Below the pieces are notes generated by a model. It was not told the DNA's origin. It searched no databases and worked only from the letters and a program-made list of their open reading frames with translations. From Somniosus microcephalus (lineage: Eukaryota): a stretch of 64,000 bases of DNA. Location: contig CM126207.1 of the NCBI GenBank assembly GCA_052327205.1, forward strand, positions 62,310,001 through 62,374,000. The letters are read 5' to 3'. The translations under genes were made by a program, and so were the position numbers. Shown in pieces: positions 28,816 through 36,081 of this stretch; the first letter of the stretch is position 1, and the number at the start of each line of letters is the position of its first letter.

Positions 28816-30537
28816 TTTTTTTTCCTTTTGAGTAGATTGATGATTTTTTGATTAATAAAAGATTTGATTCTGTAAACTTATTTTCAGCAGTATTGTGCTG
28901 GAAAAAATACAGAGCTAGAGATTCACAGTACTGTAATTGTTTTTATTTTGGTGCTGAAATGCTACTGCAAGACTGAGGTGGGAGCGCTTTTGTGTTTTCA
29001 AACTTTGTACAACAGTGCATCAGTTGCCTTGGATGTATAGCTGAACATGGCCTAGATCCTTACAATAGCTGTTGGTTGCAATATGGAAATAGGTTTTACC
29101 TTCACTAGGGATTGTAGACATATTTGTAAAGAGTTAAATTTTGACCCTTGGAATAACTTGAGTGTTTTCATCGCCCTTGGGAGTGCTTATTTCAACTGCA
29201 GAAAATGGTTTAGACCTTAAAATTGCTATTTGCGACTGAGTTGGGGAACACTTCTACTCCTACAAGTCCTTAGGCTAAAAGTAAACTAGCATTTTTAAAT
29301 GCACTAACAAGTCTTCTAAATGTTATTTCCCAGCAGAGCTTTGCTCTTTCTCCCCCCCCCCCCCCCCACCCCCACCACCAATTGAATACTTCATTTAAAA
29401 TTTCAGCAAAAGGCGGAAATTGTGCTCTAGGAAGTTGACACTTTAAAATGTACCTTTGACTTCTTTGGCATGGAGAAAGATCATACAGTCACAGCTCGGC
29501 TTCCAGTCATGTGTTTAGTTATTTGTTTGAACATTTCTTCATGCTTGCTTGGTTCATTTCAAACGCTATTCACTTTGATTAGAAGTGGCAGTTCCAGTGC
29601 TCCAGTGGCTCCATCTCAAGTCATTTATTCAGAACAATGGTCTTAAATTGGCCTATGTTGAGGATATGTTTTATGGATTGCGTTTAAAACAGCGCACTCA
29701 AAGAATTGAAAAGAGTGATTGTGTTAGGTGTTAGAAAGAAAAATGAGACTTACTTTTCATATTATAAAGATCACAATTGGAAGGAGAAGGGCTCAGAAGA
29801 AGCTGGGAAAAGTATCTGGTTACTTCATAGGTGAGCTATTAATAATAACTATGGTTTCTTAATGCACAACTGTCTACGGTAATTTAATGCAGTAGTTAAG
29901 CTGGGTTTGTGGCCATCCCCAACTGGAACTGGATGATGGCTGCTAAACAGGACTACTCATTCCTTTTGGGTGGTGGCAAATTCTTGGTGTTGTCTTTATT
30001 TGTGCAAGTACATCTGACTTTGCAGGAAGCTTGAATCAAAGTATCTCCAGTGTAAAGCACAAAATGGACCTATGCTAAGCGTATTTAGTTCTTGCTATCC
30101 AGGTACAGTACTGATTTACTTCATGTACCATTTTTGCCCAGTACCTCCAGCACAGGATATTGTGGGTAGTTTTAAAGAGTCTACACTACACAATAACAGT
30201 GGAGTCATGTCTTTATAATAAATGATCGGTTTTAAGTGACTGTTGTGGGCCTGCTCTACAACAGCCAGTGGTTTGAAGTTGGTACCTGTGTAGGACAGTT
30301 TGAATTGGCAGCATTCTTTTATTTTGGTTGCTGCACATTGCTCCCTGATCAGGGAAAGTGGATTCTCTGCACATGAAAATTTGCATTGCAAACACAGGAA
30401 TCTGAAAGCAGGTTAAATTTTTTGATGTTTCTGAAGAGCTGACCTGCATCATTGGTAACAATTTAAAAAAAAAAAACATATTTTCATGGGATGGGTGCTG
30501 GAGATTATATTGCTGGAGAATGGAATACTTGCCATTG

Positions 30538-31681
30538 TGAAAGGATAATTACTAGTCCTAGCCCCTTTAAGGCTACCCCAGATCAGGCGTATTCCTCAGA
30601 TGTTCACTTTCAACTAAAGTTTGAGGTAGCCGAATCCTAAAGAGGCTTAATTTGGTCTAAAGGTCCGGACTATCTCTCCCTAAAGGAAAGGAACAACTTG
30701 AAAATGTTACCGTCCTCCAGATAGCACTTTTAATAAGTTTAGCAGACTGTAACATTCTGGGTATTATGAGGGTCTGGAAAACTCCCCCAGAATTCTGCAA
30801 CTCCTCACCAAAGAGTGTACAGTGATTGAGTTCGCGAGTTTGATACAGAAGTATTATGTGAGACAATTCTAAAAATATATAGATTTATTAAAGAACCGAT
30901 ATATACTTTACAGTTGGTGAGTCAATCGCAACATTAACAGTTCCAAAAAGAGAGAGCTTTACAATCTTATCAGAGATCCTTACTGTCAAATCTTAACTTC
31001 GCTAGTTTTACAGTTCTTAAAGTTTATTCAGGATATCCACCAAAATCAAATACAGTACCTTGATCCCCGGGGTACAAAGATTTGTAGATGTACAGAGCTA
31101 GCTCTGAAACCGAGAGTCGCTTTGCCCCTTTAAGCGAGTCTATTATCCCATTTGAGAGTTCAATATTCATACCCTTTCCCAGTAGTATTTCCTTTAATGT
31201 TTTCTGCTGATGTAAGCTAATTATCTCTAGTCTTGTTCCCAAAGATTCAGATTTCAGGAGCCTTTAACCTTCTGTTTCAATAAGGTTATTGATTCAGTGT
31301 CAACAACTTATCTTATCTTTGATGCGCTATCAATTACTCATAAAAGACTGAGAGTTAAGAGAGTAACTAAAGGCTTTTTATTAACAAAAGAATGAAGGTC
31401 TGCCTCGAGTGGTCGACCGGTCCAGAAATACAAAGGGCTGGGGAGCAGTCACCTTTATACTAGGACTTGTGGGAGGAGTCAGCCGAGGCATGTCCAGGCA
31501 TGTACACAGTGGAATACAAACAGTGGTTTACCACAATCTTAATAGCCAGAATGCTATCACAGCTTTTTCATCATTAGGTTTCTAGATTTCCAGACCCAGT
31601 TTGTCATGTTTTAATAAGGCCAGAATTCTTTCATAGAATGGTGTATTTTTCTGAATAGGTTATATTGCTTATTCCTTCACA
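30538..31681 (-). repeat. 3' LTR of the provirus (lacks ~215 bp of U3 and carries a nested solo LTR)
   Basis: About 12 substitutions and 1 indel versus the 5' LTR in the first ~290 bp by manual count. Segment ~33766-33980 is missing here. Preceded on the minus strand by the PPT. Confidence 0.95.
31320..31535 (-). mobile_element. Solo LTR (216 bp, Gypsy-like) nested in the proviral 3' LTR
   Basis: TG..CA termini and a 5-bp TSD ATCTT (31315-31319, 31536-31540). Minus-strand TATAAA followed by AATAAA. Absent from the 5' LTR. Confidence 0.9.
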
Positions 31682-31691
31682 CCCCACTCTT
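31682..31691 (-). promoter_or_regulatory. Polypurine tract (AAGAGTGGGG) abutting the 3' LTR
   Basis: Plus-strand ccccactctt lies immediately inside the LTR-initial TG. Confidence 0.8.
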
Positions 31692-31976
31692 GACCAAAAA
31701 TGAACTGCAGCATCAAGACAGAGTTTGGTCAATGTTACTAATAAGGTTGCAATAGCACGTTAATTTCACGAGCCTAATCATGTGTTACATGAAAATTCCT
31801 TTTAAGGCATCCCAGGACAATGTTTTGCCTTATTTTAAATTGAACACAAATTAAAAGGATGATAGGTATATTGTCATGCAATTAGCGAAATAACATGTAC
31901 TTAGAATGTCCAATTGGCATATGTACGTTCCGTAGAGGTGAGTTATTCATACGAGTCAAGGAGATGTCATTTGGAA

Positions 31977-32303
31977 CTAGCTGAAGCTTGACACATTGTT
32001 GCAGTGATCCAGTGTGAGGACAGATTCTTGTTTTCGTAAAGGCCTTGCCAGGAGCTCAGTTGATTCCTTCTCCACCCGCAGTGTTTTCCTCCTTCGTTGA
32101 AGTAACTCATTGATCTTTACTTGTTTTGGTTGTGACATTTTGCGAATCCAATTCCTGAGGTGTTGCCAAGCATCGTATGGAGGAGTCGGCGACACCGTCT
32201 GGCAGACCATCGTCAGTAGTTCGATCGCATCCATTTCCTGTGTCGTGCTCCAAGCTGGGTCTTGAAAGACAGTGTACGACTGCACCTTGTATTGTTCCTC
32301 CAT
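31977..32303 (-). pseudogene. ORF at the env position, overlapping the pol 3' end (candidate Env leader remnant)
   Basis: 108-aa ATG-initiated ORF starting just after TVSIDNLK and overlapping the pol frame until its stop at 32107. The assignment is positional only. Confidence 0.4.
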
Positions 32304-33048
32304 TTCGGTATCCCGCAGGGCATCTTTTGAGATTGTCTATGGAGACAGTTTTAAGAATATGCTTGCCATTCAACTGGTTAATATGTATTTTAACTGTTCT
32401 TTCGTTAATAACACAATGTATTTGAACAGGTTTTTGCTCGCACTTTTCCTGTACCCATTCTCCTGCTAGGGGTTGCCATGCTTTGTTTGTAGATTTTTTT
32501 TCTGCCTATTTGCCTCCCTTATCCTCTGTTACTACTTTTTAAAAATCTAACTGTCGGGTCAAGGAATCAGAGTGTAGAGGCAATAAAAGAACCAAGGGTA
32601 AGCGTTGTATGCATCTCAACCCCATACATCAGATAATATGGAGTTTTAGGGGACACTGTCCCTGATGCAGATGCGGGCACATTATTAAGTGATAGCTGCA
32701 CCTCCGGAATGACTTATTTCCCCTGATTCTCAACAGTTTGACCAATAGCTTTTTTACTTCCTGGTTTTTATGTTCCACCAGCCCCGCTGATTGCTGATGA
32801 CGTGGCGTGCTGTGCTCTAACCCAATCCCCCTTTGTTCGCAGTAGTCTTTGAAGACCTTGGAGACAAAGGCTCTGCCTTGATTGGAGTGTAAGATTTTGG
32901 GTACACCAGCTACAGTAATTATGTCAGTAATAGCATTGGCGAGTGCGTTTTCCGACACAGTTTTTGTGGGGACCAGCCAGCAGAAGGAAGTGCATCCATC
33001 TACAAGATGGATATAGATATAAATATAAGTACTGTATAGGGTTCTGTA
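32107..33048 (-). pseudogene. pol: Integrase (catalytic core plus C-terminal domain) of pol, frameshifted, foamy-virus-like
   Basis: Minus-strand blocks in order: YIYIYIHLVDGCTSFCWLVPTKTVSENA; VPKILHSNQGRAFVSKVFKDYCEQRGIGLEHSTPRHQQSAGLVEHKNQEVKKLLVKLL; frameshift, IPEVQLSLNN..KTPYYLMYGVE; frameshift, WQPLAGEWVQEK..KPVQIHCVINERTVKI..KTVSIDNLK. The first catalytic Asp region is deleted and the second Asp is replaced by Asn. Confidence 0.9.
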
Positions 33049-33064
33049 TCAACTCATTAACACA

Positions 33065-33078
33065 CACGTTGGGCGCCA
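33065..33078 (-). promoter_or_regulatory. Primer-binding site, tRNA-Lys1,2 type
   Basis: Minus strand reads TGGCGCCCAACGTG (14 nt of the canonical TGGCGCCCAACGTGGGGC), 2 nt (GT) downstream of the LTR-terminal CA. Confidence 0.9.
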
Positions 33079-33080
33079 AC

Positions 33081-34210
33081 TGAAAGGATTATTACTAGTC
33101 CTAGCCCCTTTAGGGCTACCCCGGATCAGGCGTATTCCTCAGATGTTCACTTTCAACTAAAGTTTGAGGTAGCCGAATCCTAAAGACGCTTAATTGAGTC
33201 TAAAGGTCCGGACTATCTCTCCCTAAAGGAAAGGAACAACCTGAAAATGTTACCGTCCTCCAGATAGCACTTTTAATAAGTTTAGCTAGAATGTAACGTT
33301 CCGGATATTATGAGGGTCTGGAAAACTCCCCCAGAATTCTGCAACTCCTCACCAAAGAGTGTACAGAGATTGAGTTTGATACAGAGTATTATGTGAGACA
33401 ATTTAAAAAATATATAGATTTATTAAAGAACCGACATATAATTTACAGTTGGTGAGTCAATCGCAACATTAACAGCTCCAAAAAAAGAGAGCTTTACAAT
33501 CTTATCAGAGATCCTTACACTCAAATCTTAACTTCGCTACAGTTTTACAGTTCTTAAAGTTTATTCAGGATATCCACCAAAATCAAATACAGTACCTTGA
33601 TCCCCAAGGTACAAAGATTTGTAGACTTAGAGCTAGCTCTGAAGCCGAGAATCGCTTTGCCCCTTTAAGCGAGTCTATTATCCCATTTGAGAGTTCAATA
33701 TTTATACCCTTTTACAGTGGTATTTCCTTTAAGGTTTTCTGCTGATGTAAGCTAATTATCTCTAGTCATTTTTCTGCTGACCCCTGCAGTTCTTAGTCAC
33801 CTCAGCTGGTAGCACTACAGAACCATGTCTCCTCTCTAGGTGTTCTAAATTTATCATAAAAAATGGCATAACAGCAGGTGCACTCCACCCGGTATCATCT
33901 TTACGAAGGCCGATGTTTGTTACTTTTATGTGCTTCTTTACGAGGTGTAAATTAGAACACCTTGTACCGGGTAACTATTGTCTTGCTCCCAAAGATTCAG
34001 ACTTCAGAAGCCTTTAACCTTCTGTTTCAATAAGGTTATTGATTCAGTGTCAACAACTTATCTTATCTCTATAGCCAGAATGCTATCACAGCTTTTTCAT
34101 CGTTGGGTTTCTAGATTTCCAGACCCAGTTTGTCATGTTTTAATAAGGCCAGAATTCTTTCATAGAGTGGTGTATTTTTCTGAATAGGTTATATGGCTTA
34201 TTCCTTCACA
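33081..34210 (-). repeat. 5' LTR of the provirus (1130 bp)
   Basis: Direct repeat of 30538-31681. On the minus strand it begins TGTGAAGG and ends CCTTTCA, with the PBS adjacent. Confidence 0.95.
33560..33706 (-). promoter_or_regulatory. Candidate LTR TATA box (33701-33706) and poly(A) signal (33560-33565; alternative at 33419-33424)
   Basis: Minus-strand GGGTATAAAT followed ~135 nt later by AATAAA. The TATA is mutated to TATGAA in the 3' LTR copy. Confidence 0.5.
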
Positions 34211-36081
34211 ATTGTAAGCATCATGCACTCCCAGTTAAGATATAATGCAGTTAGATGCATAGTAAAGCTCCATTCATTTGTTCTGCCTTAACATTTCACT
34301 TAGAACCTCACAGAACTGATGGAGCAGGTTTTTTACTGGGTAAGATTTGAATCAAGATCCCGGAGCTGAAAGGATTTAATCCAATACACCACCCAATTTT
34401 CTCAAAGATTTAAGTGTAAGTAGTTGCTTTGCACTATTTTCAGTGCAAGATGCAAAGCTGAAGTGTTATGAGGCTACTTCGTTGAGGTACGCTTGTCAGA
34501 ATTTGATCTAATCAGTTTGGTGACTTGAATCCGCAGCCATCCTTCAGGTTTTGTCAATTCAATATGAAACTTGCATCTGAGCAAGAACTGGTATAACTGG
34601 ACTTGATTCTCCTGCATATTATCCCAATAAATAAAATTGGGGGCACATTAAAATATGCTGTAAATAGTTGATGAAATGTTATGCAAGGTACCTGTAGGCT
34701 AAACATCAAATACATTAACTCATTTTGAATGTGTTTAATTTAAGCACCAATATGTGTAAATTGCAGGATTAAAGTTTTAACTTCATCATCACTGGTCCAA
34801 AATAAGTAGTTACTTGTTTACCTGCCTAATGACCTGCCTTTGTTGCTCTTATATTTCATGTAAATTGTATATGCTGCTTTAACTCTGCACTAATGTTGCC
34901 CAGCAATCTTTCACGTCACGAATGCTTAAGTCTTCTATATAGTGTACATTTATTGAGACTGCATAATACTGCTGAAAGACTATGGTGGCAATTTGCACAT
35001 TTAAGTAAGCAAGTATTTAGAAAGATAATTGCTGAAAAATGAATTGTTGCTTGATCCAAAAAGGGAATTGTCACCATTGAATCTGAGTTGTTAACAAAGC
35101 TAGAGAAACTGCAATTATCTAAACTCTCTTCCACGTGCCACCCATGGCCGAAAGGGCAGATTCGGCCTTTGTCAATGCTCAGGCACTTTTACTTTGAGAG
35201 AGTGCCATGAATGGCAGACATGCGATTTTCTTGTCAATGGTAATCTCAAATATAAAGGACCCAATCTCTGGAGTTCCAAGGGTATTGCATACCCAGATTT
35301 CTGTGAGCCATATGAGCTGCTGTTGGAAGTAAAGCTTCCTGTTTTAGCCTGCTAAATGCACAGAGCTGCTGCAGTGTACCTGGGTTCTTGCTTTATGCCG
35401 CTATTTTGCATCATGATGGATCGAGATACTTCAAGTGGTTTCCCAACCCTGCTATTTATATGGACGGGTGCATGATTCAGACAGCTTATGCTCCAGCTGA
35501 AAGAGGCATTTACTGAGCAGTGGCTCTTCTAAAAGTGCTGAGGATGAAAGTGAGGACATTAAATGGTCAAAAAGGTTTATTTACAATGCTCAAAATCCAG
35601 GATGTACCTATCATGACATCCCTACCCACCCATCTATCTACATGTATATGGAACGGCAAGGTTTGCGGACATGCACGTAGCACAGTCCACGGGAAGAAAA
35701 CTGCGAATTGAAATGATACCAACCAAAGTAAACGGTAGAGAATGATCATCAGTTTTGGTTTAAGTGTTGCTCTCCCAAGACTCCAACTTAAACGTAGACG
35801 TGTCAATATTAAGTTTGGTGCCAGAAAATGCATACTAGTAGTCCATCAACCACTCTCCCTGCAACTCTTGCGATTCAAACAGACTTTTGCTCTAGTGTTC
35901 CAATTAACTGTTGCGAAAACTTGATTTAGGTAATTTAAAAAAAAAGGAAATGTATATCCGGTTTCATAATGTGATAATACTGAAAGATCCCCTGTGACAT
36001 TGCCTATAGCAAGTGCGAAGGTATGGTGTTTTGGAAGAAATTTTGGTTTGGTGTAGCATTCATTACTGTAGGTGAGATGAT

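What the first reader, a model, noticed from the sequence alone, without database searches (positions are those of the whole stretch)
31682..33080. Provirus reduced to a natural foamy-vector-like layout: PBS fused almost directly to the 3' pol (integrase) region
Seen: the interior is only ~1.4 kb. Integrase-like sequence starts within ~40-60 nt of the PBS, so leader, gag, PR, RT, RNaseH and the IN N-terminus are gone. The 3' pol segment, env-start region, PPT and both LTRs remain. Established: foamy viruses need a cis-acting RNA element in 3' pol (CAS II, containing purine-rich runs and the central PPT) for packaging. Purine runs lie at the equivalent place here (minus strand AGGAGAATGGG..AGGAAAAG at ~32440-32465; AGAGGATAAGGGAGG at ~32513-32527). 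Inference: this may be a non-autonomous derivative mobilised in trans rather than a product of random decay. The loss of the leader/gag CAS I region is a point against this.
Basis: partly seen in the sequence, partly recalled or inferred. Interest (0 to 1): 0.7.

Follow-up and report, generated by a model that had tools for sequence, protein, structure and literature searches.

The report
Dead copy of foamy-virus retrotransposon family
This stretch is a one-off, further-broken copy of a foamy-like virus that has about 700 copies in this genome, most lacking the envelope gene and many lacking reverse transcriptase, and the deleted forms that did spread, likely by borrowing proteins from fuller copies, nearly all kept the integrase region and an open reading frame into it.

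Summary
The anatomy is real: two LTRs, a 4-bp target duplication, a primer site, and integrase sequence 57 nt after it. The primer-site/integrase junction occurs once in 6.4 Gb, the copy cannot make integrase, and the cited purine runs are partly made by private deletions.

The family behind it is the interesting part. It is a foamy-type ERV with roughly 620-670 matches per interior marker. Only 13 matches show an undeleted env site against at least 223 with the env deletion this copy carries. At least 116 copies share a gag-to-RNase H fusion and at least 223 share an RT deletion. Of 11 gag-pol deletions shared by several copies, none touches integrase. Nine of the 10 cleanly scored ones keep the frame, against 4 of 15 single-copy ones (p=0.004). 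Gag and pol lie in one frame, split by one TGA, unlike mammalian foamy viruses.

This resembles mouse IAP and its I-delta-1 form; I found no report of it for a foamy ERV. Against: one amplified subfamily is out of frame, and no amino-acid selection was detected in the RT-less forms.

The parts
33081..34210 (-). 5' LTR, 1130 nt, begins TGTG, ends TTCA
   Evidence: 92% identical to another family LTR over its whole length
30538..31681 (-). 3' LTR with a 217-nt insert (31319-31535) and a deletion of about 213 nt, neither in the 5' LTR; K2P distance to the 5' LTR 0.048 over 923 sites
30534..30537 (+). target-site duplication ATTG, left copy
34211..34214 (+). target-site duplication ATTG, right copy
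33061..33078 (-). primer binding site, tRNA-Lys-like, 2 nt behind the LTR
   Evidence: resembles the Lys site printed for a stork foamy ERV; canonical tRNA end recalled, not tested
33005..33060 (-). leader remnant, first part of a leader of about 250 nt
   Evidence: aligns with family leader
32998..33004 (-). deletion junction found only at this locus; 7-nt microhomology shared by leader and integrase; removes 1255 nt relative to a form-B copy, about 4.5 kb relative to a copy with whole gag-pol
32056..33004 (-). integrase core (first catalytic residue lost) and C-terminal part, broken by stops and frameshifts, no start codon in front
32027..32303 (-). start of env (about 92 codons), overlapping the end of pol; ends at a shared deletion of about 1.7 kb
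   Evidence: junction has 223 matches in the genome
31997..32026 (-). 30-nt piece from the middle of env, followed by a shared deletion of about 1.6 kb
31692..31994 (-). remnant of the region between env and the 3' LTR, with a third shared deletion of about 0.34 kb at 31939-31929
31682..31691 (-). 3' polypurine tract, with the GGGTG motif across the LTR border
   Evidence: motif described for foamy-like fish ERVs in PMC5210030 section 3.4

Best explanation
The element is a member of a large env-less foamy-type ERV family that carries a large deletion found nowhere else in the genome, and it is most likely a dead end, while its deleted relatives likely spread inside cells using Gag and Pol from fuller copies. 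Steps. (1) Shown: env-bearing copies of the same family exist but are rare; an env-deleted form, which this copy carries, is common. (2) Inferred: the env-less gag-pol form retrotransposed intracellularly and served as helper; its shared variants show purifying selection. (3) Shown: several different RT-less deletion forms each occur at many loci with different target duplications; inferred: they were mobilised in trans. (4) Shown: these shared deletions spare integrase and mostly keep the frame. Inferred: a transcript that can be translated through to the end of pol has an advantage in cis, most likely through an integrase-containing fusion protein as in mouse IAP I-delta-1 (about 0.45), otherwise through RNA stability or an RNA signal. 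(5) Inferred: this copy lost a further 1.25 kb (if from form B, about 0.7) or about 4.5 kb at a 7-nt microhomology, during its own reverse transcription or after insertion; without gag start, most of the leader and the RNase H region it left no descendants.
For: Junction unique. Marker counts, reversed-pattern controls all 0: leader 667, RNase H start 541 plus 116 fused, integrase 624, 3' end 639, env-deletion junction 223, undeleted env site 13, RT-deletion junction 223. Foamy-specific domains in natural copies: Gag_FV_central, Spuma_A9PTase, Foamy_virus_ENV. Form-B copies with both ends checked: 3 of 9 perfect 4-bp duplications, 3 of 9 with 3 of 4 letters, all different. In 96 leader-selected copies, 59 lack all or part of RT by a shared deletion, 14 hold RT, 23 are unclassified, mostly cut by nested insertions. 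Shared deletions in frame 9 of 10, single-copy 4 of 15, Fisher p=0.0036; same-frame share of chance repeats 0.39-0.52. None of 11 shared deletions overlaps integrase, P=0.0016 under random placement. Purifying signal in PR-RT of env-less gag-pol copies, 21 nonsynonymous/24 synonymous shared against 206/84 single, p=0.002. The gag stop is replaced by TGG in 11 of 49 copies.
Against: One shared deletion, in the protease, is out of frame (13 copies held, 10 of the 96); in 7 of them later indels are seen with a shared TAA in the pol frame, so it spread without a readable path to integrase. The RT deletion reads in frame at its junction but scored 12 in, 8 out, 4 unscored and was left out of the 9 of 10. 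Variants private to form B show no amino-acid selection (95/33 and 25/5 against 529/157, p=0.5), and the subfamilies have too few fixed differences to test. Form B is not one clade in the integrase tree, which is mostly unresolved. The frame test was chosen after seeing the data, some single-copy deletions may be rare replicated forms, and three shared classes rest on 2-3 copies. Counts include a few segmental duplications. Whether this copy's deletion came before or after insertion was not resolved.
Confidence: 0.8

Rival explanations
1. One reading: this very layout (primer site fused to the integrase core) is a non-autonomous element that replicated in trans through a CAS-II-like packaging signal.
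For: LTRs, target duplication, primer site and PPT are intact. Other deleted forms of the family did replicate.
Against: One match in 6.4 Gb. It lacks the gag start and leader that foamy CAS-I includes and the 5' part of the 1.8-kb CAS-II region assigned to genome packaging (PMC5035957 section 2.2). No central PPT copy; purine runs reshaped by its own deletions.
Confidence: 0.04
2. The family keeps the RNase H-integrase region because it holds an RNA element needed in cis (a CAS-II equivalent); frame-keeping is secondary or chance.
For: 3' breakpoints of the seven large shared deletions that end in 3' pol lie near the start of RNase H or within it, none in integrase; foamy CAS-II is about 1.8 kb of 3' pol. 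The out-of-frame protease-deletion subfamily spread while keeping this region. No amino-acid selection in form B.
Against: Does not explain 9 of 10 in-frame junctions or the recurrent loss of the gag stop. No central PPT. With gag and pol in one frame, Pol may be packaged as Gag-Pol and need no RNA bridge (inference).
Confidence: 0.35
3. Frame-keeping reflects RNA survival, not protein function: ribosomes that read to the end of pol protect the transcript from nonsense-mediated decay, so in-frame deletions and stop loss raise RNA levels.
For: In-frame bias without amino-acid selection; an in-frame 111-nt deletion inside RNase H is shared by 29 copies. Readthrough protecting retroviral RNA from decay is recalled from the MLV literature, not checked here.
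Against: Does not by itself explain why integrase sequence is always kept. The out-of-frame subfamily is as much a problem here.
Confidence: 0.25
4. All patterns are by-products: deletions form at microhomologies, which favour the same frame, and a few master copies happened to amplify.
For: Exact repeats in gag-pol are in the same frame 39-52% of the time. Only 11 shared events. Star-like tree.
Against: Single-copy deletions, formed the same way, are in frame in 4 of 15; p=0.002-0.005 against nulls of 0.40-0.45; sparing of integrase P=0.0016.
Confidence: 0.15

Closest known systems
Mouse IAP and its I-delta-1 subtype
   Same: Env loss followed by high copy number; a non-autonomous subtype with a gag-pol deletion that makes a fusion protein, reported to act in cis (review PMC6466679, passages; the primary paper was not held).
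   Different: IAP is a class II (beta-like) element with one dominant deletion type. Here the element is foamy-type and has at least six distinct RT-less forms.
Prototype foamy virus and its vectors (CAS-I, II, III)
   Same: Foamy-type Gag, protease, integrase and Env domains; 4-bp duplication; Lys-type primer site; GGGTG border. Replicated deleted forms keep leader, gag start and 3' pol, like the vectors.
   Different: Gag and pol are in one frame split by TGA, with no Met before the protease motif, whereas PFV makes Pol from a separate spliced mRNA. No central PPT copy. The window copy itself lacks most of both CAS-I and the 5' part of CAS-II equivalents.
Fish, amphibian and shark foamy-like ERVs (AciFLERV, AliFLERV, NviFLERV, CmiFLERV, ERV-Spuma.0-Sca, tuatara ERV-Spuma-Spu)
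   Same: Multi-copy foamy-like ERVs in non-mammals; complementation in trans or re-integration was suggested for some.
   Different: In the passages read, none is described as mostly env-less with defined replicated deletion subfamilies; cichlid and killifish elements had 9 and 23 copies. I did not align this family with their sequences.
XtERV-S (Xenopus class III ERV)
   Same: Class III gag-pol separated by an in-frame TGA; internally deleted copies exist (PMC8278194, passages).
   Different: ERV-L/S-like pol with a gamma-type env, described as not foamy-like; this family has foamy Gag, protease and Env domains.

Membership tests
Foamy-type (spuma) ERV | Pol closest to foamy virus Pol | tested here: met
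   Integrase E 1e-26 to PFV against 1e-6 to others; best PR-RT hit a simian foamy virus Pol, 37% over 99%. No tree with outgroups was built.
Foamy-type (spuma) ERV | Foamy-specific Gag, A9 protease and Env domains | tested here: met
   PF20672 and PF03539 above cut-off in family copies; PF03408 at 9 loci that carry family sequence. Absent from the window copy itself.
Foamy-type (spuma) ERV | 4-bp target duplication, Lys-type primer site, GGGTG at the PPT border | tested here: met
   primer-site identity rests on likeness to a published Lys site
Spumaretrovirinae as defined by mammalian foamy viruses | Pol made separately from Gag, own start codon, other frame | tested here: not met
   One frame, TGA between in 34 of 49 copies, TGG in 11, other 4; TGA in 2 of 2 env-bearing copies; first Met at residue 104, after the protease motif at 29. 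Splicing not excluded.
Spumaretrovirinae as defined by mammalian foamy viruses | [quoted passage not shown] | tested here: not met
   closest internal match 2-3 mismatches of 10 in 6 of 6 interiors
Spumaretrovirinae as defined by mammalian foamy viruses | Internal promoter and tas/bet accessory genes | not tested
   about 0.9 kb lies between env and the LTR in an env-bearing copy; not analysed
Non-autonomous replicating ERV (window junction form) | Same internal junction at several independent insertions | tested here: not met
   1 match
Non-autonomous replicating ERV (family forms B, C and others) | Same internal junction at several independent insertions | tested here: met
   116 and 223 matches; different duplications; pairwise identity 84-95% within small classes, no shared flank seen
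IAP I-delta-1-like cis-acting fusion | In-frame gag-pol fusion | tested here: met
   forms B, Bx, D, F read in frame across the junction
IAP I-delta-1-like cis-acting fusion | Fusion protein promotes mobilisation in cis | tested here: inconclusive
   no amino-acid selection detected, low power; function not testable with these tools

The most novel reading that the evidence does not exclude
A foamy virus became an IAP-like intracellular retrotransposon, with Pol made by readthrough of a single gag stop, and spawned a series of parasites whose deletions form a natural map of what a foamy genome needs in cis: leader, gag start, the integrase region, and a frame open into integrase because an integrase-containing fusion protein acts on its own RNA.
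Probability: 0.4. Interest if true: 0.72.

Novelty: new variant of a known kind. Interest (0 to 1): 0.52.

Why it matters
The copy itself is ordinary decay. The family matters for three reasons. It shows a foamy-type ERV reaching several hundred copies after env loss, a route well known for class II elements such as IAP. Its independent replicated deletions give a natural test of whether the CAS-II rule of foamy vectors holds in a distant lineage, and whether the need is for RNA or for protein in cis. And gag and pol in one frame around a single stop, seen also in env-bearing copies, bears on when foamy viruses acquired their separate Pol mRNA; a laboratory study found PFV tolerates Gag-Pol fusion (PMC3196705, abstract).

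Tried and rejected
Splicing as the origin of the env deletions: the three junctions show short microhomologies and no GT donor; rejected. Amino-acid selection on integrase in RT-less lineages: 0-4 diagnostic changes per comparison, no power. Assigning the window copy to form A or B: nearest LTRs are four form-B and one form-A copy among the top five, the tree is unresolved; left at about 0.7 for B. Readthrough signal: a hairpin folds behind the TGA in three copies, but no shuffle control was run; not used. Sequencing runs: no RNA holder listed; contigs of two runs join both flanks to the LTRs, so the insertion is present there, but the table shown had no piece bridging the junction, so no allele or orthologue with a longer interior could be tested. 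Earlier findings of the scan: nothing returned. tRNA scan of the window: none. Pfam gave no usable hit for the env-start peptide. The primary IAP I-delta-1 paper and the env-less superspreader paper were not held.

Full report
Observation. The window holds a minus-strand provirus: 5' LTR 34210-33081, interior 33080-31682, 3' LTR 31681-30538, ATTG duplicated on both sides. The primer site is at 33078-33061. At 33004 the sequence switches to the integrase core, which matches prototype foamy virus (PFV) integrase at E 1e-26 (Pfam rve). The first catalytic residue lies in the lost part, no start codon precedes the frame, and the rest has stops and frameshifts. The LTRs differ by K2P 0.048 over 923 sites; 18 of 19 other pairs gave 0.027-0.097 and one mismatched pair 0.171. 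The host was not identified; the genome is 6.4 Gb.

A search with the interior gave 2004 candidates, 40 scored; only the window's locus covers query bases 1-73. A 91-nt junction query was covered whole only by this locus among 40 scored of 1348. A 24-nt junction pattern with 2 mismatches allowed found 1 match. The junction sits on a 7-nt microhomology. The copy also carries several small deletions bounded by short repeats, one of which creates the purine string at 32527-32513. No interior tested holds a copy of the PPT (6 of 6), which is what defines the foamy central PPT (PMC5035957 section 2.2, read whole). So this layout did not replicate.

The family. Copies with whole gag-pol exist and carry Gag_FV_central, Spuma_A9PTase, RVT_1, RNase H and integrase domains. 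Foamy Env gave 11 hits at 9 loci, a floor, and these loci belong to the same family. Against them, the window interior lacks three pieces of about 1.7, 1.6 and 0.34 kb at 32027, 31995 and 31935. The first of these junctions has 223 matches, the undeleted site 13; the pattern found 18 of 40 copies that cover it and missed one clade wholly, so 223 is a low floor. Interior markers agree: leader 667, RNase H start 541 plus 116, integrase 624, 3' end 639, with pattern sensitivities of 98%, untested, 92% and 86% in my sample. That puts the family near 700 copies with no large class lacking integrase. In a tree of the integrase-env region (75 of 91 copies kept, bootstrap not settled), env-bearing copies form one clade and the window copy sits in an unresolved group of env-deleted copies.

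Replicated deletions. Form B joins gag codon 37 or so to the start of RNase H: 116 matches. Of 9 form-B copies with both ends checked, 3 have perfect 4-bp duplications, 3 match at 3 of 4 letters, 3 do not; all differ. Form C lacks RT: 223 matches. To avoid selecting on pol, I took 96 of the first 100 exact leader hits (4 left out: two not fetched, one tandem neighbour, one held only as a short locus). Of these, 59 lack all or part of RT through a shared deletion, 14 hold RT, 23 are unclassified. Over all copies held, 11 gag-pol deletions of 60 nt or more occur in two or more copies (an insertion private to the reference copy set aside). Nine score in frame, one (protease) out of frame, and the RT deletion reads in frame at the junction but scored mixed. 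Single-copy deletions are in frame in 4 of 15 scored, 3 unscored. Fisher p=0.0036; binomial p=0.002-0.005 against a microhomology null of 0.40-0.45; none of the 11 overlaps integrase, P=0.0016 under random placement. These tests were chosen after seeing the data.

Gag-pol border. Gag and pol are in one frame. The codon between them is TGA in 34 of 49 copies, TGG in 11, other in 4, and TGA in 2 of 2 env-bearing copies. The first Met of the pol frame follows the protease motif. Readthrough is inferred; mammalian foamy viruses instead use a spliced pol mRNA (PMC3705302, passages).

Selection. Shared variants in PR-RT are depleted of nonsynonymous changes in env-less gag-pol copies (21/24 against 206/84, p=0.002) and in env-bearing copies (6/28 against 62/46), which fits the env-less form having used its own Pol. 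Variants private to form B look neutral, and subfamilies have too few fixed differences to test. The protease-deletion subfamily spread while out of frame or with a shared TAA. The cis-protein reading is therefore likely but unproven; an RNA element and RNA stability remain live.

Mechanism. Env loss leading to intracellular retrotransposition is described for IAP (PMC6466679, passages); that foamy capsids reverse-transcribe before release and can re-integrate is recalled, with a related suggestion for tuatara and coelacanth elements (PMC6669660, passages). Deleted forms likely arose by template switching at microhomologies and were packaged by helper Gag-Pol. PFV CAS-I runs into the first 200 nt of gag and CAS-II spans about 1.8 kb of 3' pol, its 5' part serving genome packaging. 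The replicated forms keep equivalents of both; the window copy does not, which fits its being single.

What is known. Searches listed no paper on replicated deletion subfamilies or a gag-pol stop in a foamy ERV; the library lacks most subscription papers. Seen: PMC5512871 (one section, passages), PMC5210030 (one section, passages), PMC10699275 (first quarter, passages), PMC8278194, PMC6669660, PMC6955096 (passages), PMC3196705 (abstract). I did not open supplements; those of PMC5512871 and PMC10699275 annotate shark and fish elements and may bear on the gag-pol claim.

Verdict. The flagged copy is a decayed singleton. The family is a new variant of a known kind: IAP-like behaviour in a foamy-type ERV, with a frame-keeping pattern worth a full-genome test.

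Noticed in passing
gag-pol border in family copies, e.g. L232, L241, L277, L291: The gag stop TGA is replaced by TGG in 11 of 49 copies, spread over several deletion classes, which would fuse Gag and Pol constitutively.
   Followed up: partly
L035:1179-1622, L033:6191-6634, L032:2524-2973 (oriented as): A second frame of about 148 codons is open over the 3' part of gag in three copies and partly in a fourth; no start codon at its front.
   Followed up: no
RNase H region, about 78 nt after the catalytic codon: The same 2-nt deletion at a T-run/CpG site occurs in 15 copies across forms A, B and C: a hot spot, or spread by recombination.
   Followed up: partly
G000:C10:72.26-72.43 Mb; C18:21.31-21.48 Mb; C9:154.62-154.70 Mb: Family copies recur at regular spacings of about 52, 87 and 42 kb, likely segmental duplications that slightly inflate the counts.
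   Followed up: no
window 31319-31535: A 217-nt insert in the 3' LTR, absent from the 5' LTR, matches other loci at up to 96%; an unidentified repeat, very abundant in two of four laid runs.
   Followed up: no
runs X4 and X8 (coded organisms C and D): Family LTR and interior sequence is present at high depth in these runs without a shown contig joining this locus's flanks to the LTR; the family may predate the split of these organisms.
   Followed up: no
LTRs of L141, L153, L162 against L143, L149, L150: LTR length varies from about 1130 to 1320 nt between sublineages.
   Followed up: no
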